Both the position numbers and the translations under genes were made by a program. The notes beneath the pieces are model-generated. The model made no database searches, was not told the DNA's origin, and saw only the letters and a program-made list of their open reading frames with translations. Of a stretch of DNA of 64,000 nt, positions 3,727-64,000 are shown piece after piece. This DNA comes from Vermamoeba vermiformis (Eukaryota), in assembly GCA_045837725.1 (NCBI GenBank), contig JBEWZL010000066.1:434001-498000 (forward strand), read 5' to 3'. Each line of letters opens with the position of its first letter. Within the stretch, counting starts at the first letter, position 1.

Positions 3727-5094
3727 TTACAAGTTTGAGTCGTTTAAGTAATTCCTTCGTATTTCCAATATTGAATCGTGATCTGCAACGCGCATAAACG
3801 ATCCGATAGAGTAATACAACATTTCCAACTTCGGCAAGAACGTGACTAGACTGGCAATCGTTGACATGGACAGTAATTCGTTGCGCGTCATGTCGAGCAA
3901 TTTTAACGATGAAAAACGCGTTAATTGCATCGTAGTGTCTTGATCGACCTTTTTCAGGCCCGATATAATCAACTGGGACAGATCTGGTGGTGCCTGACTC
4001 ATCGCTAAGGCTTTGATGCCGGATCCGGTCACAGCAGTGTGCGCTATATTTAGATCTCGCAAATTCTCCGATTTTGATAAATGTCCGACAGCGATATCAG
4101 AAATTTCATCGCAGTAGGACAGATCTAGCTGCTTGATCTTCGGAAATTTGGAGGTGATAATGATCGCTGCTTCATCTGTCAATCGAAAACATCCCGATAA
4201 GGAAAGACTTTCCAAATTAGGACAACAGACTGTCATACTAGCGATAAAATCATCGGTGACGCGGGTGCATCCATTCAAACTGACAGATTTTATCGATCTT
4301 GATACTCGTTCACTGAAATAATTGTCGTTGAGCCACGTGTTTTGGCTGAGATCGAGATTTTCCAAATAAGGCAACTTCAAGATCGCGTCGAGCAAGTCTG
4401 TAGAATTGCCCAAATTTGAGCACTGCGATAGAACGAGCGTGTTTATGGCTCTATAATTATTTATAATGCCATTTAAATATCTTCCATCAATATTGTTGCA
4501 TTTGATTAATTGCAAACGGCGCAGTCTTTTGGGATCGCACTTGGACAAAGCCAGATCGAGCTGCTTATTTGATATATTTTCGATTACTCGCTCACCTATA
4601 AAAGTGAGGTCTATTAGACCATACCAATATCGTCCGTAGTACCACCACTTATTCGTGAGAGCCAATCTGGTTTAAGACAATTAAATTTAGAAAAACTATT
4701 GTTAACCGGCCACCCCCGAAATGTATATGAAATATAACATTATAGCCCCGCCAGCGCCAAGACGTGGCACGTTTTATGAAATCAGCTGTAAGTAATAGTA
4801 TTAATTTATTTTATTTATCCTATTAATTTTATTGCATACTAATACGTAAGCTAACTATGTATTAAATTTATTTATTTATCACGCGGTGAATTTGTTAAAA
4901 GATAAAAAAATTATTGGCAGGGCTCGAACGTACCTCACGACTTGGGTATAAGTTAAATGTGAAACTATAATACAGATCATATCCATTGGTAGGTCAATGA
5001 AAGCGAGCGGGTTGTCAGACGACTCGTCGATCTTGGCTCGTTTTACGCTTACACTAACGAGATCTTGGTCGTCACTTTCGTAGCTGCGCTTCAT
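3727..5094 (-). CDS. F-box/leucine-rich repeat protein (FBXL-like)
   Basis: Exon 1 has the F-box FIDLPMDMICIIVSHL. Exon 2 has Cys-containing LRRs (LESLSLSGCFRLTD, IKQLDLSYCDEISD). Confidence 0.92.
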
Positions 5095-53124: not shown

Positions 53125-55513
53125 ATGAAGTGCTTCATTATCGCTACTATCTTCTTAGTATCTTTAGGGCTCTCCGTGGCTCAGTTAGAGCTCGAAGCCG
53201 AGTGGATTCACGTTGGCAAACCTGCAGCGAGCGAAAAAATTTCAATGCTCGTTGGATTGCAACAAAAAAATGTAGAAATATTAGAGGTACGTATTGGAAT
53301 GTAAAGTTAGGTTTTTCTAAAAGAAAAAACTAATTTTTAAATTTAGGCCAAGGCTCTCTCGGTCAGCGATCCAGACTCACCGGAATACGGTACCGTACAA
53401 TATAAACCATTGTATATCCTGCACGTATAATAATAAGATTTTCAGGCAAGTTCCTCTCGATGGAAGAAATTAAAGCTCTCGTTTCTCCAAGCAAGAAGGA
53501 TCACGACATCGTGTTCAACTACTTTGCCCAAAAAGGTAATAGAGCATAATATCGTAATGATAAGGGTTTCTTTAACTCCTTTTTTAGGATGCAAAGTCGA
53601 TACTTTCTCGGATGCCTTAGCCGTTGAATGCAGCATTGCTACCGTGGAGCGAATGTTCAACACTGAGTTCGCCGTCTACAAGCACGAGAAAGAAGGTAAG
53701 GGTAATGAAACTACGTGAAGAATTTTATTAATCTCGTTACAGATGCTCGTCTCGTTCGTCACATGAAGGCATACACTATTCCCCAAGAAATTCTTAGTCG
53801 TATCGATATCTTGACCACCGCTGAGGGTCAATGTCGCATTTTCCAACGCAAGGCCAAAAAGATGAAGGAAAGAGCTGGCCAAGTGTTCCAAAACAGGTAC
53901 GTTGTTGGTAGTAGTGAAAGATGATTTCTGATGGTTTTCCAGATGTAGCAACAGTAGCGCCTCGCCCTACGGATACGTGCATCCTGCCTTCTTGCGAAAG
54001 ATGTACGGCTTCCCCGATTCGCTGTTCCCTGCTGTCAGCAACTTAGCTAGTCAAGCCATTGGCGAGCTCGGTGGCGTTGGATTTCCTTACTACTTGTAAG
54101 AGACCGTTCTTGTAAGGAATTTACTTGCAGGACTAATTTCCGCTTTAGTGACCTTCAAAACTGGGCTAATTTGACTAATACCGAGTACGCGAACTTCACT
54201 AACTTCCCCGGTGGTACTGGCAGCCTTTTTGGTGCAGCTGTTGAGAGTACACTCGACGCTGAATACATTCAAGCTATTGGTCAAGGAGGTACGTAATATT
54301 TGACCCGTCAGCACTGCGATGGGAGTCTAATTATCGTTTTGAAGTTCCAACGTGGTACCATTATGCCCCCGGTTGGATGTTGGACATCACAGTGGCGTTG
54401 AACAACATCTCGAAGATTCCTCAAGTTTTCTCGTTGTCCTATGGTTGGGAAGAGTTCGATCAATGCGACTCGCAATTCACTGGGTACGTTCAATTACTAA
54501 CACATATAAGTCAGTTCCACTTACGTGTCCTACAGTACTGATTGCCACGGATGGACAGCTGCTCAATACATCAAGCGTACTGACGTCGAGTTCGCAAAGC
54601 TCGCGGCTCGTGGTGTCTCGGTTTTTGTCGCTTCAGGTGACGAGGGAGCTCCTGGTGAGCTGAACAATCAGTGCGTCAGTCCTGCTGGTAAACAACGTAA
54701 GTACAGCGTACCTTTGCAAGTGCGACAACTCACACCGTGGCAGTGGGTTCTCTCTACCCCGAGTCATCACCGTGGGTAACTACAGTGTCAGCCACTACTC
54801 CCATCATCACATCGGGCAGCTACGACATTGGCATGCCTCCTTTGTGTGACCAGACTACCTATCCGTGCTTGAATCAGCACGTCGAAGAAGTTGCCTGTCT
54901 GTGGAACAACACTTACTACTACTGGACAACAGGTGGTGGTTTTAGCATTGACACTCCTATGCCTTCGTATCAACAGGCCGCTGTCAAGAAGTACTTGAGT
55001 TTGGGTCCTAGCAACTTGCCCGCTCCTGGCCTCTTCAATCCCAAAAACCGTGCTTATCCTGACATTAGCGCTGCTGGTGCTCGCTTCTTGTATTTGGTCG
55101 ACAACGTAGTGACCGTCGTTGGTACGTTAATAGTTCTAGTAATTAGCACGAAATAACCAATTCACGAAGAGGGAACAAGCGCATCTGCTCCAATCGTGGC
55201 TGCTTTCGTTTCGTTGATTAATGCATATCGAATGGATCAAAACAAGCCTCCTCTTGGCTTCTTAAATCCATTGATTTACAAACTGGGTACTTCAAATCCC
55301 GCAATTTTCAACGACATTACCATCGGAACTAATCGCTGCACCGTCGATGGCTATTGTTGTCCGTATGGATATGACGCAACTAAGGGCTGGGACGCTGTCG
55401 TAAGTCATAATGGAATAACCAAAAAAGATTTTGTGTTAAATTAATTATTTCCGCAGACTGGATTTGGCTCGATCCGCTTCGACAAATTCTTCGAGGTAGT
55501 GAAAAAGCTATAA
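53125..55513 (+). CDS. Sedolisin (S53) / tripeptidyl-peptidase I-like serine-carboxyl peptidase
   Basis: Signal peptide and prodomain VSDPDSPEYGK. Catalytic ESTLDAEY, SLSYG, ASGDEGA, RAYPDISA and GTSASAP. Ca-site GWDAV|TGFGS. Confidence 0.93.
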
Positions 55514-55748: not shown

Positions 55749-57318
55749 ATGCAGTCAAATTATCGTCTGTTGATCGTAATATTATTTTATACCGCATTAA
55801 TCGCGGGTAATAATGCGCTGGAGGTAAGCCTAAGGATCGAATCCGGATCTAATTACTTAAAATCCAAAATTCAATTTATTATTTGGCTAAATAAAATGTT
55901 TGCTAACATATATTAAATAGATGCTAACAACAGTTGCCTACAGCGATCTAGCAACATTTTCTACAACGAACACCATTACATCCGCTGGCGGAGATTACGT
56001 AATGATGTTTTTGTATCAATCGGGCACTTCAATAGCGATCTTTAAGAGAAATTCAGACGGATTCTACAATCTTGTAAATACAATCAACACAGCGAGCGCG
56101 GTCAGCGGTGTCGCCACGAATGGAAACTGGTTCTCCTACGTCCTTAGCACCGGATCTGCTCAAATCTTTCAGCTCAACGGCGGCTCAATTGTTAATGCGA
56201 CGTCATATTCTAACGCTGGCTTATATACGAACATACTATCGGACGATTCGGTGCTATTTTTAGACACCTCTTCCATCAAGACTTATCAGCTGGTCTCTGG
56301 CAGTTGGACATTGGTGGACACAAGCTCAGTGACACTGCCTGCAAGCACCATGTATCCACCGTACCACTTGACGGATACCACGCTTGCCATCTACGAGTCA
56401 GGAACATCTTTAGTCAAGCTGTACACGAGAAACAACAGTTCGTGGGTCAAGCAGGATCAGTTCTCGTTCTCCACTCAAGTCTCGCGCATCATTTGGACTG
56501 GCGATGACACTGTTGTTTTGACGAATCACTTGAGCGCTAGCGACCCCCAAGGAACTGTATGGATCTACGTCAAAGTGAATAACGTAACGTGGACCAACGT
56601 GAACACAACCACAGCAACTGATATTGGCGTTACAACAGTCGGCTACTTTGGTCAGAGTGTAGCACTTCTCGACCAGAACAACATTGCCGTGAGTGCCCCA
56701 TTCGACGGCATTGATGCCACACGCTACTACGACAGCGGCAGCGTGTTTTTATTGACACGCTCTGGCTCGGGTTCGTGGAGCTACTCGGCTAGATTGCGAC
56801 CGTTATTGCGCGGTCCTGTGTATGGATCGTCGCTTGCTGCAAGTGGACGAGACTTGCTGATTGGTCAATGTGCTCTTCAAACTGACGTGAATGCCAAGTT
56901 AAAGGTGGATTGTTCATTCCACCCTCTCCCGCTCTGCTTTCAAGAGCCGATCAACGTCACTTGCAACGATGTGACATTTGACACGTGCACAACTTTTCCC
57001 AGCTTGTCAGGCCTCGAGATGTTCACGGTCAACAATCCTCTCTGCGGTAACACGGCAAGCAATTTGGACCGCGTGCATTTCAGCGGAGCATCACTGGTCG
57101 TGGACATGACCTTCACTCGCAATTACGTAGCACCCGCAACGTGCAACATCACTCTCACTTGTCCGAGTGCACCCGTTGTGCGCGCTCCTGATGGTAGTGT
57201 CGTGCCTGTAGCACCGCAACCAGGAAAGACTCCCTCTTCAAGCAGCGTCAGCAGTGCAGTTACGTTGTCTTCGTTCGTGATTGCGAATTTACTTTCGCTT
57301 TTGTTAATTGTACAATAG
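55749..57318 (+). CDS. Secreted, probably GPI-anchored beta-propeller surface protein with integrin-alpha-type FG-GAP repeats
   Basis: Signal exon MQSNYRLLIVILFYTALIAG, intron 55824-55920. YFGQSVAL..IAVSAP..SGSVFL and YGSSLAASG. Cys-rich region, Pro/Ser stalk and hydrophobic C-terminus. Confidence 0.8.
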
Positions 57319-57454: not shown

Positions 57455-60400
57455 ATGGAGGTGGATAGTGGCGCAACTTCCTTGCTGGATTTGCCGAATG
57501 ACGTTCTCACACAAATCCTTAAATTACTACCGTTAGTTCCCGATGTTTGGAGTTGCATATTGGTAATTTAATACCATTTTTAGCCACAAAATTAGAGCTA
57601 ATTTAATATTTGGGGCGAATCTAGGTTTGCAAGCATCTAAAAAATGTTTGTAATCTTCCAACAATTTGGAACTGCGTCACTGTTCAAACTTCAGCGTTCA
57701 AGAGACGGAAAAGAAATTATTATGATCCTGAGGACGAAAATATGAAGCTCAAGAAAACGACTTTGTCAATTAATCCAAGACAGCTCGTGAAATTTATATT
57801 AAATAATCACGCAAAGGATATAATTGAGCTAGATCTGACTGGTGCAATTTTTGAGACCGAGGTAAATTTGATTTTTAATGAAAGGATCAGATCAAAAAAA
57901 ACTCCATTATTGACCGCGTTATTAATTTTAGCGCGATCATAATAACAGAAGAAAAATATACTCTAGACGAGCTGCTTTGAATGACTCGGAGGAAATTACG
58001 AATCTGCTGACAGATTTACTTCTTCGCCTTCCGAATATTCAACGATTGAGTTTACGAGCTACTGGCTGGGAATCTGGCTCAAAACCATTACGTAAGTCCA
58101 TATCACGATTCAATCTTGATTTTCTGACCCTCATATTGCCCATCAAGCGAACCTCCGCGGATTGGGTCGTGAGTCGACGTTGCGCGAGCTCAATTTGAAC
58201 CAATCAACGCTATTAAATCTTAAACCGAGGCAATTGAAGCGCCTGCTAAAGATTTGCCCCAAGTTAGAGACGCTGTTCGTTGCTGGTTTGTCCTTGGATG
58301 CGAGCAGTGCAGATATTTTAATCAAATACGGCAAAAAACTAAAGTCCCTCGATCTTACGAGCAGTGCCGCTTCGAATGCCCATTTGGTTCGAGAATTGCC
58401 GGATCTGACCTTGCTCATAAGTACGTCGTAGCTTTTACATCCTAACGTTACTGACTCTTACAGACATGAAAAATGAATGGGAAGCGAATAGACTGCCCAG
58501 TGAAGATTTTTCCAGCATACGAGAAAACATTACCGTTGTGACTAACCCTAATTTGAGGTAAATATTACTTCATGGTCTTCACGACGATTTTAACTAATTC
58601 AATTCCTACTCGTAGAAACTCGATTTGGAAGGCCAGTACGGCAGAGATTACGGGCATTATTCCGGCCATTAAGAACTTGACCTTTTGCGATGTGTTCGGC
58701 TCAACGTTATTCCACAAATTTGTCGACGCAGATACCTCTCTGAACACGTCTGCTCTCTTAGAACATCTCGTTAGAAATCTTGGCTTCAACGTTAATGTAT
58801 CGTAAGTAGTACCGTCTATCAAAGCACAAAATACTTAGTCAAATGTAGCGTGGTTGATCGTGATCGCGTGAGAATTAACCCGTGGGTCTCGAACTTCCCG
58901 TACGACACTGCCCACGACAACATGTACGGCGATGTTAACTGGAATCATGCTACCGCTAAGACTCTCGAAGTGGTAAGTCTAGTGACCTATGTTGGTGGCA
59001 TTGTGCTTATTTGTATCAGGGCGACACCGCGTTACATAAAGCCGTAAAAATGAATCGCATTTGGCACGCAAAATAGCTTGATTTCTGTGGGTGCTAATGT
59101 CAATGCACGCAACAAGTACGTCCTACATCGGTCCGTTACACTTGTAAATAACGTTAACATTCGATGTTTTAGGGAGGGCCGAACACCTCTGTGTTACGCG
59201 AACCACGAAGAGGCAGTCCATGAGTTGCTCAAGGCAGGTGCTGATGTGAAAGTTATTGATAGACACGGCTGGTCTGTCGTGATGAATTTCATCGCTAACA
59301 AGTCCCGACTGCCAAATCGTAAGTGAATCTATTGTCCATCATTTCATTAATTATTTGCACGCAGCCCAAGTGCCTGCTGCCGCCAGAGCTCGAATTGTCG
59401 ACGATTTAATTAAGGCTGGTGTTGCTGTTGAACATCGTGCCAAATCGGGACTTTCGGCCCTCGAGGTAAGAACATCAACAAGGAAATGGAGGCTTTACTT
59501 AATGAGTCTTCAGATTGCTTTGCTGAGCGCTGATTGGTCGATGGCCGAGTCGATGTTGAAGCATTCAATACCTCCTAGCAAAGACGTTCCCAAGAACAGT
59601 TTAGGTCCGCTGCACTGTCTCTGTTTAGCAAAGGTTGCAGACGATGGAGTACAAGCCCAACACCAGACTGTGAGTATTAATAGCTGCCACAAAAGGGCGA
59701 GCATTAACAATTGTCCTAGTTGGCGGCGTTGCTCAACTCCGAGTCAGCTGAATTGTTCCGCACCGACGACCAAGGTCAAACTGCCATGCACGTAGCTTGC
59801 ATCATCAAGCGATATGACCTCGCTAATAGAATGTTGGTGTAAGTCTTTGGCTTGGAAAACTAACGCGACATTCACTGACCGGAACAGACACGCGAGTTCA
59901 GAAGAGGCAGTCAAGTTGTTCTCAATGCCTGACAAATCGGGCTATACTGCACTGCACTACGCGTTCTTGCCAGAATTGAAAGAAGAAGCTCCCGATCGCA
60001 ATCTGCCCTCGTACAGCAGAAGCATGTTGGTGAACGGCAAAGACACGTGGGTGAAGAATTTGAAGCAAGTCAAAGCAAAGCTGCCTTCGTTAGTTGTGGA
60101 GCACGAAGAATTTTTCGTGAATCTGATGCAAGTCACCGGTCTCGATGTGAACGTCAAGTCGCAACACAATGAGACCCCGTTGTTGCTCTTGTGCAAGTCA
60201 ATTTGCTCGGACGAAGTCGCTTCTAAATTAGCGCGTCGATTGCTCGAATGCAGCGCCGATCCAAACATTGCTGTAAGCTCTCACCACTTGTTTATATTTC
60301 GCTAGTTTACTGACGGCAGTATCAAGGATGATCAAGGCACAACGCCGTTACAATTAGCAGCGTACGCCCAAAAAGAAGAATTAGTCAAGTTGCTGCTCAA

Positions 60401-62632
60401 GCACAATGCCGATGCCAATTTATCAGATCGCAAAGGAATCAACGCGTTACTTGCCGCTACCATCGGGTGTTTGAAGGTGACAGAAGAATTTGCCGAGCAG
60501 CGCAAGAGAATTGACCAATATAACTCTAACAACGACGAGATCGGCGCTCAAATCGACGATAAGTCGGAGAGGGCTATTCAAAAGGTCCATGGCATCTTGG
60601 ATGCGTTGTTGCCTGTGACAAAGGACGTGAACAAGCCCGAGGACGTAAGTTCTACCATCATTCGATGATGAGTTAAATTGACATCTTATTGACGCAGGTT
60701 TTGGGCAAAACGGCGTTACACTACTTGTGCGCGTGTACTTCTGTCACCGAAGACATCAAAAAGTTTGTCCAGGAGTACGGAGCAAGCATGGAGGTCCGAG
60801 ACATCATCGGCGAAACACCAATCCACGATACGCTGCGAAAGTCTAACTGGCAGAATTTGAAGACCTTGATTGACTTGGGTTGTGACGTGAACTCTGTAGG
60901 CTCACGCGGTTGTTCACGTACGTATATCATACAACATTACAGCTGTGGTCATTCGATTAATGATTGGTTCAACGCAGCTCTCCACAAAGCACTTTCAACA
61001 TCCGAAATCTACCGATTGTCACGAGTCGAAGGAGATATATTTGCTGAGGGCTACAAGATTGTCGGGTAAGCACAACACGCCCTTTGAAAGTCTTGTCTTA
61101 ACGGTGTTGGCAGTCACTCTTTGGTCTTCTATCCCTCGTGGCTTTGGGTGAGCATTGAAGAGGACGAAACAACAGTTAACAACAACAATCGCGTGTATCG
61201 CAACGATTGGGAGTACTACGAGCAAATGTATCGACTGATCTTCGTGTTGTTTACCGTAGCTGACAAGCTGGACTTCAACCTCGTGAATAGCCGTGGTGAA
61301 TTGCCACTTCATTTGGTAATATCGGTAAAGCCTGGCTTAAGGTTGTATCTGACATTCTATATTTAGGCTTGGTTCTTTGACGAGGAAGAACGAGTTTGGG
61401 TCGACACCGTGTTCGCTGACTTCCCGTACGTACCCGAAGAACGTGAGCAAACAAGACCTCGCGTGGGTCATTCCTTTGTTGATGTTGGAGCACGCTACAA
61501 AAGAGCAGCTCAATACGCTCGACAAAACTGGTCAGAGTCCATTCCACGCTTTACTGTGCACCAACTACGTGCGCCCAAGTTATTACTCAACGCGATCACC
61601 GACGTTCAAACCAGGGTATGTGACATGTATTCTGTAAATGAGCAGTATTAACTCCTGCGTAGTGTGACAAAGATCGTCAAGATGTGCTTGGACAAAGGTG
61701 CCGATATTGCAGTTACGACTTCAGACGACGAGAACAGTCTCACTATGGCTTGCAGGAACAATGTTTACAGTGATATTCTAGAGCTTTTGCTTAACCACAG
61801 CACCAGCGGTAAGTCACTCTTCCGAAGTCTTTTATCTTCTAATTATGGCTCAGAAGCGTTGGGCAACACGGTTGACAGCAGCGGTGACACGCTGTTGCAT
61901 AAAATCCTCAGTGTCAATCGCGATACCCGCGACGAAAATGACGCTGCCGTTACTCTGCTTCTAGAGCGGTTTCCGGAGCTCATCAACGAGTACAATAATG
62001 AAGGCTTTACACCGCTGATGGTCTTTATCAAGGATTTCGATTACAGCAGTTACAACAGGGTACGAGAGACTATTCGCAATCCTTAACAGGACCCTAACAA
62101 TTGGCACAGGGAACTCCACCCAAGTCGAAAGTCAGCGAAACTCTGTTGAAGTTCAAAGGCATCGATGTCAATGCACGCAGCCAGAGCACGGGTGAAACTG
62201 CACTGCATTTATTGTGCTCGTGGTGGTTCCCGTTCAGCATTTTTGGTGCATTCTACAACAACTCTGATTTGTTTTACCACCTCGGAAATGATAACATGCT
62301 CGTTCAACTGATTGAGGGTAAGTCACTTAAAGTTTTGGCAGAGCATCTAACAATTCGACGTAGCCGGTGCCGATCCGTCTATTCAGGATAATTCCGGAAG
62401 AACTTGCTATGATATTTTACCAAACCTTCGCCAGATTGTAGATAAATATGGACAATTCATGCTTCGGAAGGCAAAATTATCCGCTCTTCCCAAGCTGGAG
62501 CAAGAACTGGGTGAGAATCAACAAACGAGAATCTTGGACATGCTTCAAGTTACATTTGCACATCCCCAACATGGTGCCAATAATGATCAGAATGATGACG
62601 ATAATGATCTTGGATTTGGTTTGTTTGACTGA
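57455..62632 (+). CDS. F-box + LRR + multiple ankyrin-repeat protein with a ribosomal P-stalk-like C-terminal motif
   Basis: F-box LLDLPNDVLTQILKLL..|VCKHLKNV. LRRs (LPNIQRLSL, CPKLETLFV, LKSLDLT). Many ankyrins (GDTALHKAV, GRTPLCYA, GYTALHYA, GTTPLQLAA, GKTALHYL, GETALHLL). Last exon 62364-62632 ends NDDDNDLGFGLFD*. Confidence 0.85.
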
Positions 62633-62707
62633 AAATGGAGGGTTTGTTGGGTCATTTTATAATAAATATTGGGGCTTGTTTTACATAATTAGAAATATAT
62701 ATATTAT

Positions 62708-64000
62708 CTACAGGTCGGCAGATTGACTGGTGCTTGTATGCGTGTTAACCCCAGCGAGCGACTGACGCGTCTGACGATTCTTGGACGCGTTGTTCGATTT
62801 GTCCGTGGAGGAGTTACTGGAACCATTCTTGCGGAAGAAGATCAACGACTGCATCAAGTCGAGAGTGTCCAACACTACGAAGATACAGAACCAGAGAGAG
62901 CCGCGACCTGAAGGTGAGGACAGGCCAGTGATAACTACAGCCAGGAACAGTGCTGCATTAGCGATCAAACAGATTCCAACACCGATAGCCCTGAACGTGA
63001 TCTGTTATTTGCTAGTCAGTACTTTCATCAATAGAGGCAATACTACAGAAGAACTTACGCGTTCAAGTCGCTTCTTGGTGCTTTTTTTATGTTTTAAAAT
63101 GACGATGATCTTTCCTGCGGTGACCAAGTAGAATATGGCGAGACCAAGGGAGACTGCTGCGTTGAAAGACCCGTTGACTTGAGTCCAAGTGGTTGTCGGC
63201 ACCGCTACAGAATGTTTAATTCAAACTGCTAAATTGTACTTTTTCTTGCAGCTACGTACTAATTGGATAAACGAAAGCAATGGCACGGAGTGTTCCGAAT
63301 GCGATCTCACAACCAAACAACAGGCCGATAATGATGAAGAAAGGCACTTTGAATTTACCCACGAGTTGGTTGACATTGAGTGACATGCCGTGGATGACAT
63401 CGTGCCTAATAAAGGCATCGTTAATATCAAACCAAGAACCGGACGATAGAGTTAACTTACCAATAGAAGGTGATGAGAATAGTGACCGTTAGTGTGAACG
63501 GTTGCGACAAAGTCCATAATGCATGGCCAGCTGAATACGGGTAAATTTGCCGAGAAAACAGTGGATCCACTACAAGAAGATGGTTAAGACCAAATAGTTA
63601 TATTCGACAACGTAGCACCGCAATGTTACAAAAATGAAATCTAAAAATACTCACCGGCAACGTAAGCAAAGCGAACTAAAAAAATAGTTGGTTAATAAAT
63701 AACTCACCTTGATCGTTTAAAGATCAGACTGACTTATATTTCCCGAAATGATCAACACCAAGCAAATAATAGGCAATTTTCGGCGTGTTCCGTGCGCCAA
63801 CAAGTTAAGCATAAGGTTCACTGCGCTAAATACAATCAAGAAAGCGGAGTAGGTGCCCAAAAACGCCGAGAAGAATGGCATAAAGGTTTCGTTCCATATT
63901 AACCAAGGATTATTGCCTAATAAAAATATTGAATTTAGCAAAATTTATACAGTCGAAAATTAATCTAAAAAAGGGTTTTCTGAATTAAACGTGAATTAAG
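62708..64000 (-). CDS. Multipass membrane protein (possibly 7TM-like); 5' end lies beyond the window
   Basis: Consecutive hydrophobic exons (FFSAFLGTYSAFLIVF; LPIICLVLIISGNI; AAVSLGLAIFYLVTAG; LWFCIFVVLDTLDLMQSLIF) with a Ser-rich tail. Confidence 0.7.

What the first reader, a model, noticed from the sequence alone, without database searches (positions are those of the whole stretch)
62364..62632. F-box/LRR/ankyrin protein ends in a ribosomal P-stalk mimic (DDDNDLGFGLFD*)
Seen: after the intron ending at 62363, the frame runs open (AGADPSIQDNSGRTCYD...HPQHGANNDQNDDDNDLGFGLFD) to TGA at 62630-62632. The ORF track does not show this frame. Established: eukaryotic P0/P1/P2 stalk proteins end in (EE)SDDDMGFGLFD. 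That peptide recruits translational GTPases such as eEF1A and eEF2 and is the docking site for ribosome-inactivating proteins such as ricin A, Shiga toxin A1 and trichosanthin. Inference: an SCF substrate adaptor with a free stalk-like tail could act as a decoy that captures and ubiquitinates stalk-binding toxins or effectors, or could target elongation factors in translation control. I do not know this domain architecture, but stalk-like tails on other non-ribosomal proteins may have precedent.
Basis: partly seen in the sequence, partly recalled or inferred. Interest (0 to 1): 0.9.

Follow-up and report, generated by a model that had tools for sequence, protein, structure and literature searches.

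The report
Ribosomal stalk tail on ankyrin protein
A protist gene for a very large ankyrin-repeat, probably F-box, protein ends in the short peptide that ribosomal stalk proteins use to bind translation factors; relatives keep that peptide under selection, but this copy has two single-base frame breaks upstream of it.

Summary
Exon 62364-62632 (+) joins the previous exon through a split codon and reads AGADPS...NDDDNDLGFGLFD, with TGA at 62630-62632. It is the last of 22 exons of a gene starting at ATG 57455. The last intron is removed in contigs of run X5 and in RNA reads of X23.

GFGLFD is identical in two other lineages, P0005 and P0008/L003-L005. Against L003, LGFGLFD has 3 synonymous and 0 amino-acid changes, while the 17-codon linker before it has 6 replacements and 2 gaps. 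Chance expectation is about 5e-4 per 30,000 proteins.

The protein is not a P1/P2 relative (no Pfam match). Ankyrin repeats are solid; the F-box (18.0 bits, cut-off 20.5) and LRR are below threshold.

The window's copy has two +1 frame breaks, a TAG at 59074-59076 and one near 61432. Relatives lack them, so this allele may not make the tail.

Best reading: a selected stalk-tail mimic used as a docking peptide. Binding, clients and Skp1 coupling are untested. Five literature searches found no natural precedent. A 98-aa ORF on two viral contigs carries SSSSDDMGFGLFD.

The parts
57455..62632 (+). Whole gene: 22 exons, 21 GT..AG introns of 43-70 nt (median 50), spliced length 4091 nt
   Evidence: Model from consensus splice sites. 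15 of the 21 introns coincide with joints listed for X5 contigs, and a 16th (59670-59719) appears in table 5c; 4 further joints were not shown.
57455..57562 (+). Exon 1: start codon and first half of an F-box-like motif (LLDLPNDVLTQILKLLP...)
   Evidence: Pfam F-box E 0.0026, 18.0 bits (cut-off 20.5), profile positions 1-18 of 43; F-box-like E 0.014. The second half would lie in exon 2 (57625-57861), which alone gives no Pfam hit.
58148..58420 (+). LRR-like exon (…LRELNLNQS…CPKLETLFVAGLSLD…LKSLDLTSS…)
   Evidence: Only a sub-threshold Pfam hit, LRR_At5g56370, E 0.0073, 16.4 bits against 27. No hit at E<=0.01 on the in-frame exon.
59070..59076 (+). Frame break 1: the entering frame meets TAG at 59074-59076 after 412 codons; the downstream frame is +1
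   Evidence: open segments 57455-59076 frame 0 and 59054-61773 frame 1. X1 DNA contigs leave out 1 base at 59074 at full depth and have C>T at 59069; X5 agrees with the window here (0 of depth 5.39). The homologue P0015 reads continuously through this ankyrin repeat.
59020..62317 (+). Ankyrin-repeat region, exons 8-21
   Evidence: Pfam Ank/Ank_2/Ank_4 above cut-off on several exons. In the homologue P0015, Ank_2 scores E 2e-47 with 7 stretches.
61430..61435 (+). Frame break 2, inside exon 61367-61615: a second +1 shift
   Evidence: segments 59054-61773 frame 1 and 61287-62632 frame 2. X1 leaves out 1 base at 61432 at full depth. X5 has one base fewer somewhere in 61366-61602, exact position not shown. 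In L005 and L003 the same exon is one continuous frame.
62318..62363 (+). Last intron, 46 nt, GTAAGT…CTAAC…TAG, phase 1
   Evidence: Joint 62316>62363 in an X5 contig; loose ends of 4 X23 RNA reads. An intron lies at the same codon position in L003 and L005. P0005 is the spliced protein of a relative.
62364..62632 (+). Last exon: end of the last ankyrin repeat, a conserved region, an acidic linker and the tail
62594..62629 (+). Tail DDDNDLGFGLFD (acidic cluster plus LGFGLFD); stop TGA at 62630-62632
   Evidence: GFGLFD is invariant in 3 of 3 close lineages. Against L003: 0 non-synonymous and 3 synonymous codon changes.
62661..62666 (+). AATAAA, 29 nt after the stop: a possible polyadenylation signal
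   Evidence: Sequence only. The consensus is recalled, and its use in this organism is not shown.

Best explanation
The finding is the real, expressed last exon of a 22-exon gene. The protein has an F-box-like start, an LRR-like stretch and about 900 residues of ankyrin repeats, roughly 1,360 residues in all. Its extreme C-terminus copies the binding core of the eukaryotic ribosomal stalk tail: an acidic cluster followed by LGFGLFD. In P1, P2 and uL10 that core is described as the short linear motif that docks translational GTPases and stalk-dependent ribosome-inactivating proteins.

Selection keeps the peptide in this clade. I infer that it works as a free docking peptide. It would bring proteins that have a stalk-tail pocket onto the ankyrin scaffold and, if the F-box is genuine, to an SCF ubiquitin ligase. 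The most likely clients are the cell's own translational GTPases. Alternatively it competes with the ribosome for those proteins.

Shown here: sequence, splicing, conservation and the selection pattern. Inferred: binding, the identity of the clients and coupling to ubiquitination.

In the window's own allele, two single-base frame breaks upstream stop translation after 412 codons. If the assembly is right, this copy is a young loss-of-function allele of an otherwise constrained gene.
For: - Sequence and frame.
- Splicing into this exon: X5 contig joints at 15 listed introns, including the last one, and 4 RNA reads of X23 running on into AGADPSIKD. P0005 is the spliced protein of a relative.
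- Conservation: GFGLFD is invariant in the window, in P0005 and in P0008 (= L003, L004, L005), while the linker varies.
- Selection, window against L003 over the last exon: 39 synonymous and 18 non-synonymous codon differences plus 3 gaps in 90 codons. LGFGLFD has 3 synonymous and 0 non-synonymous changes. The preceding 17 codons have 6 non-synonymous changes and 2 gaps.
- Selection between strains: 27 synonymous against 5 non-synonymous among the 32 exonic differences in the 40 listed rows; 87 further rows were not shown.
- Chance: 5e-4 expected per 30,000 proteins for the motif alone.
- Literature: SDDDMGFGLFD is the conserved stalk peptide. GFGLFD is the part seen in the ricin A pocket, and C6 binds at 18.8 uM against 2.3 uM for C11 (PMC5086656, passages). 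MGFGLFD is called the partner-binding short linear motif and the charged part the regulatory one (PMC11624264, passages).
- Domains: ankyrin repeats; F-box half-hit.
Against: - No binding test of any kind was possible.
- The F-box is below Pfam's cut-off, and the LRR is one sub-threshold hit.
- No PDB or NCBIfam hit for exon 1.
- The more distant homologues P0010, P0015 and P0016 end in EEEDAFDLFN, EEENADDLGL and DDDENGFM, not GFGLFD. The family's core function therefore does not need exact stalk mimicry.
- The tail has no serine, whereas the stalk's charged part carries phosphoserines. The residue before G is L, Q or L where the stalk has M.
- The linker before the tail is short, about 17 residues.
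- The window's allele is frame-broken twice, and X5's transcript contig shares the first break.
- Only three close lineages were available.
Confidence: 0.5

Rival explanations
1. The tail is a conserved acidic-plus-hydrophobic C-terminal motif whose partner has nothing to do with the ribosomal stalk. It could be an intramolecular latch on the protein's own ankyrin groove. It could also be an acidic FxxΦ-type motif of the kind bound by clathrin-adaptor ear domains; that motif class is recalled and was not tested. On this reading the exact match to GFGLFD in one clade is convergence on a short peptide.
For: The deeper clade keeps the same position and an acidic run but has different hydrophobic ends: EEEDAFDLFN, EEENADDLGL and DDDENGFM. 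There is no serine and no long hinge as in P1/P2. No P1/P2 domain is present.
Against: Six of six residues are identical to the stalk core, at the extreme C-terminus and behind an acidic cluster. P is about 1.7e-8 per C-terminus, and 5.5e-11 with the acidic cluster. The six residues are invariant in 3 of 3 lineages despite near-saturated synonymous change.
Confidence: 0.33
2. The tail is a decoy that captures stalk-dependent ribosome-inactivating toxins or effectors met by a bacteria-eating protist, and hands them to SCF for ubiquitination.
For: Free stalk peptides compete with ribosomes for ricin A (PMC6162817, title and abstract in the search listing). GFGLFD alone binds ricin A (PMC5086656, passages). 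The architecture is F-box-like plus a display scaffold.
Against: There is no evidence of any toxin exposure, of binding, or of rapid evolution of the kind expected in an arms race; the gene is under purifying selection. The F-box is unproven. The allele is dispensable in at least this strain. Endogenous GTPases are far more abundant ligands.
Confidence: 0.1
3. In this window the gene is a recently inactivated allele, a transcribed pseudogene. Translation ends at TAG 59074-59076 and the tail is never made. This can hold together with any of the functional readings for intact relatives.
For: The spliced message falls into three open segments of 412, 718 and 368 codons, separated by two +1 shifts. 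X1 DNA contigs lack one base at 59074 and one at 61432 at full depth. The other 10 of the 12 listed indels lie in introns or the 3' UTR. X5, a different strain and study, agrees with the window at 59074. L005 and L003 are continuous at the second site, and P0015 is continuous at the first.
Against: Everything else in the downstream frames is intact and strongly constrained (27 synonymous against 5 non-synonymous). The breaks are therefore very young, or, for the second one, an assembly error. X5 has one base fewer somewhere in 61366-61602. The raw reads of the window's own assembly were not available.
Confidence: 0.55
4. The tail is an artefact of the gene model: it belongs to another gene, for example a P1/P2 gene, or to another frame or terminal exon.
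For: None was found.
Against: One X5 contig joins 62109-62316 to 62363-62638. X23 RNA reads cross the same joint. P0005 carries the ankyrin exon and the tail in one spliced protein. There is no Ribosomal_60s match.
Confidence: 0.02

Closest known systems
C-terminal tail of the eukaryotic ribosomal stalk proteins P1, P2 and uL10/P0 (…EESEESDDDMGFGLFD)
   Same: Extreme C-terminal position. An acidic cluster followed by [M/L]GFGLFD: 8 of 11 residues are identical to SDDDMGFGLFD and the last 6 are identical (motif from PMC5086656 and PMC11624264, passages). The tail sits behind a low-complexity linker.
   Different: No P1/P2 N-terminal domain (no Pfam Ribosomal_60s hit). No phospho-acceptor serines. 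L or Q in place of M. A short linker of about 17 residues in place of a long hinge. The tail is attached to a protein of about 1,360 residues with ankyrin repeats and an F-box-like start.
F-box proteins with repeat domains (FBXL type), and ankyrin plus F-box-like (PRANC) proteins of poxviruses and Orientia (names recalled)
   Same: An F-box-like LPxxΦΦxxIΦ motif at the N-terminus followed by LRR-like and ankyrin repeats. Orientia ankyrin proteins carrying PF09372 appear only as distant ankyrin hits.
   Different: The F-box is not above threshold here. PRANC proteins have the opposite order, ankyrin repeats first and the F-box-like part last (recalled). My searches found none described with a stalk-like tail.
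Synthetic stalk-peptide mimics used to block ricin A and Shiga toxin binding to ribosomes
   Same: A free peptide with the stalk C-terminus competes for the toxin's stalk pocket (PMC6162817 and PMC11418909, titles and abstracts in search listings).
   Different: Those peptides are man-made reagents. This one is a natural, selected peptide on a cellular protein.
98-aa ORF on two IMG/VR viral contigs (L001 6508-6804 +; L002 498-794 -), ending SSSSDDMGFGLFD
   Same: A canonical stalk tail on a protein with no Pfam Ribosomal_60s match at E<=10.
   Different: It is small, about the size of P1/P2, has serines before the acidic run and has M before GFGLFD. Atlas feature neighbours are 60S acidic protein clusters at 0.84-0.86, below the 0.9 bar, so it may be a diverged viral P1/P2. 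It is unrelated to the window's protein.

Membership tests
Ribosomal stalk proteins P1/P2 (Pfam PF00428 Ribosomal_60s) | N-terminal dimerisation domain / match to the family profile | tested here: not met
   No Pfam family for P0001 at E<=1 or for P0002 at E<=10. The PDB sequence search gives only ankyrin-type hits.
Ribosomal stalk proteins P1/P2 (Pfam PF00428 Ribosomal_60s) | Extreme C-terminal [M]GFGLFD behind an acidic cluster | tested here: met
   DDDNDLGFGLFD followed by the stop. The motif is as given in PMC5086656 and PMC11624264. M is replaced by L here, by Q in P0005 and by L in P0008.
Ribosomal stalk proteins P1/P2 (Pfam PF00428 Ribosomal_60s) | Phosphorylated serines in the charged part (EESEESDDD) | tested here: not met
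   There is no serine in the last 25 residues of the window protein, P0005 or P0008. The feature is as described in PMC11624264.
F-box protein / SCF substrate receptor | F-box domain above the curated threshold | tested here: inconclusive
   Exon 1 alone: PF00646 at 18.0 bits against 20.5, E 0.0026, profile positions 1-18 of 43. An intron splits the domain, and the spliced protein could not be given to the tools. No PDB hit.
F-box protein / SCF substrate receptor | Binding to Skp1 | not testable with these tools
   No Skp1 of this organism is held and no whole genome is held.
F-box protein / SCF substrate receptor | Repeat domain for substrate binding after the F-box | tested here: met
   Ankyrin repeats score above Pfam cut-offs on several exons. 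The LRR is sub-threshold only.
Functional mimic of the stalk tail (short linear motif mimicry) | Motif kept by selection while its flanks drift | tested here: met
   GFGLFD is invariant in 3 of 3 lineages. There are 0 non-synonymous and 3 synonymous changes in LGFGLFD, against 6 non-synonymous changes and 2 gaps in the 17 codons before it.
Functional mimic of the stalk tail (short linear motif mimicry) | Binds the stalk's partners (translational GTPases, GCN2, stalk-dependent toxins) | not testable with these tools

The most novel reading that the evidence does not exclude
There may be a class of natural 'stalk-tail display' proteins outside the ribosome. One example would be this cellular ankyrin/F-box ligase adaptor. 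A second, independent example would be a small protein of a large DNA virus. Both would present the P-stalk C-terminal peptide to capture whatever docks on the ribosomal stalk. In the protist this would make an SCF ligase that senses, titrates or destroys translational GTPases or incoming stalk-dependent ribosome-inactivating toxins. That would be a surveillance or regulatory layer on the GTPase-associated centre that has not been described.
Probability: 0.12. Interest if true: 0.9.

Novelty: new variant of a known kind. Interest (0 to 1): 0.6.

Why it matters
The stalk tail is one of the most conserved peptides in eukaryotes. It is the common handle for elongation, initiation and release GTPases, for GCN2 activation, and for ricin- and Shiga-type toxins. 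A natural non-ribosomal protein that displays the same handle under purifying selection, probably on a ubiquitin-ligase adaptor, would give a testable entry into two questions: whether cells regulate or police stalk-binding proteins away from the ribosome, and whether predators of bacteria defend themselves against stalk-dependent toxins. The viral ORF with a canonical tail suggests the idea may reach beyond one gene family. If the tail binds nothing of the kind, the finding is an instructive case of convergence on a short motif.

Tried and rejected
**Tools unavailable**
- No whole genome is held for the window. A proteome-wide tail scan and a comparison with the organism's own P1/P2 tails could therefore not be done.
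- The genome search on the viral loci: the records are not held.

**Gene model**
- My first gene model, a minimum-intron dynamic programme, was wrong at several introns. I replaced it with the consensus-site model that X5 joints support.
- One donor was mis-set and corrected.

**Searches that added nothing**
- Metagenome scan with P0002: 78 pattern matches, none confirmed. The second scan, with alignment A1, gave L003-L005.
- The search for homologous proteins with P0008, 'near' lengths: only the query itself.
- With P0001, 'longer' lengths: 1 hit among 53 candidates, and no annotated full-length protein.
- With P0010 residues 640-889: 118 hits. Only P0010, P0015 and P0016 are true homologues; the rest are generic ankyrin proteins.
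- PDB sequence search with the last exon: 7 hits, all but one ankyrin-repeat or designed-repeat proteins (the seventh, 5xg5 MITSUBA-1, aligns weakly to the linker), none to stalk proteins because the tail is too short.
- PDB search with exon 1: 0 hits.
- NCBIfam: nothing for the window's pieces.
- Atlas with the last exon: only ankyrin leads below 0.9.
- Viral scans for the E/D variants of the pattern: 0 and 0.

**Ideas rejected**
- A Euplotes-like +1 ribosomal frameshift at AAA-TAG (59071-59076; the motif is recalled). Rejected because the second break has no such site, and because X1, L005, L003 and P0015 simply read through.

**Not run**
- Complex prediction and structure prediction. An archaeal stand-in is a poor test: stalks are reported to be compatible only with homologous GTPases (PMC11624264, passage).

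**Not used**

**Literature**
- Five full-text searches found no natural non-ribosomal stalk-tail protein: 'GFGLFD'; 'GFGLFD'+'mimic'; 'ribosomal stalk'+'decoy'; 'P-stalk'+'F-box'; 'P-stalk'+'short linear motif'.
- I saw search listings only, except for passages of PMC5086656 and PMC11624264. Supplements were not opened.
Full report
**1. The observation**

Read from 62366, the + strand gives GADPSIQDNSGRTCYDILPNLRQIVDKYGQFMLRKAKLSALPKLEQELGENQQTRILDMLQVTFAHPQHGANNDQNDDDNDLGFGLFD and then TGA at 62630-62632. Read literally from 62364, the frame is wrong.

The intron 62318-62363 is 46 nt and has GTAAGT, a CTAAC branch-like site and TAG. A six-frame scan of the 64 kb window finds this as the only stalk-like tail. 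With the gene's own residue frequencies, GFGLFD at a given C-terminus has P = 1.7e-8, which is 5e-4 expected per 30,000 proteins. With at least 4 of 6 acidic residues before it, P = 5.5e-11.

**2. The gene**

The window is eukaryotic DNA with 41% G+C and short introns. Its other genes are ordinary: an M28 peptidase, a FAD/cytochrome-b5 enzyme, an ABC-2 transporter piece and another LRR protein.

From ATG 57455 I built a model of 22 exons and 21 GT..AG introns of 43-70 nt, median 50. My first automatic model was wrong at several introns and was dropped.

- Exon 1 gives a half F-box: PF00646, 18.0 bits against a cut-off of 20.5, E 0.0026, profile positions 1-18 of 43. An intron splits the domain, and I could not hand the spliced protein to the tools.
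- The LRR call rests on one sub-threshold hit. The in-frame exon gave nothing at E<=0.01.
- Ankyrin repeats are solid on many exons and in the homologue P0015.

The safe label is therefore 'ankyrin, probably F-box, possibly LRR'.

**3. Expression and splicing**

One search found runs holding the stretch, and four of them were laid.

- Contigs of X5 are labelled RNA only by a guess and are 95-99+% like the window. They lack the introns at 15 listed GT..AG joints. All 15 coincide with introns of my model, including 62316>62363. A 16th appears in table 5c, and 4 more were not shown.
- One X5 contig covers 62109-62316 plus 62363-62638. It has four substitutions and none in the tail.
- True RNA reads of X23 come from a 90-95% alike relative. 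They include 4 reads that run from 62315 straight into sequence encoding AGADPSIKD.
- P0005, from the representative library, is the spliced protein of a relative (…LIEAGADPAIKDN…GDDQGFGLFD).

**4. Conservation**

Three close lineages are available:

| Lineage | Source | C-terminus |
|---|---|---|
| Window | P0001 | …NDDDNDLGFGLFD |
| Relative 1 | P0002/P0005 | …NEDGDDQGFGLFD |
| Relative 2 | P0008 = L003, L004, L005 | …NDDGDELGFGLFD |

GFGLFD is invariant, the residue before it is L, Q or L, and the linker drifts. L003 and L005 have an intron at the same codon position.

Codon by codon against L003, the last exon has 39 synonymous and 18 non-synonymous differences and 3 gaps in 90 codons. LGFGLFD has 3 synonymous and 0 non-synonymous changes. 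The 17 codons before it have 6 non-synonymous changes and 2 gaps.

A deeper clade (P0010 at 44% identity, P0015, P0016) shares the whole C-terminal module and an acidic end. It finishes EEEDAFDLFN, EEENADDLGL and DDDENGFM. I cannot tell whether the last two are truncated. P0011 and P0012 are more distant and lack such an end. An acidic-hydrophobic C-terminus therefore looks ancestral, while the exact stalk core is a feature of the window's clade.

**5. The frame breaks**

The spliced message of the window is 4091 nt. It falls into three open segments:

| Segment | Frame | Codons |
|---|---|---|
| 57455-59076 | 0 | 412, ending at TAG 59074-59076 |
| 59054-61773 | 1 | 718 |
| 61287-62632 | 2 | 368 |

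DNA contigs of X1 are 95-99+% alike. They leave out one base at 59074 (with C>T at 59069) and one at 61432, both at full depth. The other 10 of the 12 listed indels lie in introns or the 3' UTR, and 9 rows were not shown. Without those two bases the message would be one frame of 1,362 codons plus a stop, provided no unlisted exonic indel exists.

- L005 and L003 read the second site in one continuous frame.
- P0015 reads through the ankyrin repeat at the first site.
- X5, from another strain and study, agrees with the window at 59074. It has one base fewer somewhere in 61366-61602.

Among the 40 listed substitutions (87 were not shown), 32 are exonic. Of these, 27 are synonymous and 5 are not, in the frames I assign, including downstream of the first break.

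The gene has therefore been under purifying selection throughout. The first break is probably real and young. The second may be real or an assembly error. As assembled, this allele stops after 412 codons and would not make the ankyrin part or the tail.

**6. What the tail is**

The literature I read in passages says the following.

- SDDDMGFGLFD is the conserved C-terminus of P0, P1 and P2.
- GFGLFD is the part seen in ricin A's hydrophobic pocket. It binds alone at 18.8 uM, against 2.3 uM for the 11-mer.
- The acidic DDD contributes, and for trichosanthin it is needed (PMC5086656).
- MGFGLFD is described as the partner-binding short linear motif. The charged serine-bearing part is described as a regulatory one.
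- The archaeal counterpart binds eIF5B, EF1A, EF2 and ABCE1 (PMC11624264).

The window's tail has the binding core (M>L) and an acidic cluster. It has no serine, no long hinge and no P1/P2 domain. It is thus not a stalk protein, but it carries the stalk's docking peptide.

**7. Mechanism**

My best reading, at 0.5, is that the peptide is a selected mimic that docks proteins with a stalk-tail pocket onto the ankyrin scaffold. If the F-box is real, it also brings them to SCF. The cell's own translational GTPases are the most likely clients because they are the universal and abundant ligands.

Rival readings:
- The toxin-decoy version is possible but has no specific support (0.1).
- A stalk-unrelated acidic-hydrophobic motif remains a serious rival because of the deeper clade's different ends (0.33).

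Nothing about binding could be tested. No genome, no partner sequence of this organism and no way to submit the spliced protein were available.

**8. Novelty**

Five full-text searches found work on toxins, autoantibodies, synthetic peptides and GCN2. None found a natural non-ribosomal protein with this tail, and none found an F-box link. These were search listings, plus passages of two papers; supplements were not seen.

Scanning IMG/VR for DDxGFGLFD-stop found one 98-aa ORF on two contigs of 69.5 and 187 kb, ending SSSSDDMGFGLFD. It has no Ribosomal_60s match at E<=10. Its Atlas neighbours are 60S acidic protein clusters at 0.84-0.86, below the 0.9 bar. The E/D variants of the pattern gave nothing.

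**9. Verdict**

The architecture is partly confirmed. The function is open, and this allele is probably broken. It is a new variant of known kinds: short-linear-motif mimicry, and repeat-bearing F-box-like proteins. Interest 0.6.

Noticed in passing
L001 6508-6804 (+) and L002 498-794 (-), IMG/VR contigs of 69.5 kb and 187 kb: A 98-aa ORF, identical on both viral contigs, ends …SETDDSSSSDDMGFGLFD, a canonical stalk tail. It has no Pfam Ribosomal_60s hit at E<=10. Atlas feature neighbours are 60S acidic protein clusters at 0.84-0.86, which is a lead only. Neighbouring ORFs include a papain-family protease, a PQ-loop protein and a WH2 motif, which looks like a large virus of eukaryotes.
   Followed up: partly
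window 59071-59076: The first frame break has the form AAA-TAG followed by a +1 frame. This resembles the slippery-stop +1 frameshift sites known from Euplotes (recalled). I take it as coincidence, because relatives lack the extra base.
   Followed up: partly
window 3727-4668 (-): Another ORF has clear LRRs of the kinds found next to F-boxes: LRR_4 at E 1.7e-9, and the At1g61320/AtMIF1 and Zer-1-like LRR families. It may be a second F-box/LRR-type gene in the window.
   Followed up: no
window 62700-64000 (-): A convergent neighbour gene on the minus strand starts about 70 nt after the stop of this gene. X5 depth jumps to 93 in 62723-62900, against 3-9 over the ankyrin gene.
   Followed up: no
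window 54701-55444 (+) and 55921-57318 (+): Upstream neighbours are a gene with a GTSASAP serine-peptidase-like motif (no Pfam hit for its first part) and a 465-aa single-exon ORF with an FG-GAP repeat that ends 137 nt before the ATG of the gene studied. The spacing is very compact.
   Followed up: no
P0006 (160 aa): A fourth lineage of the gene is visible only as a gene call that reads from the penultimate exon into the intron. Its tail could not be seen.
   Followed up: no
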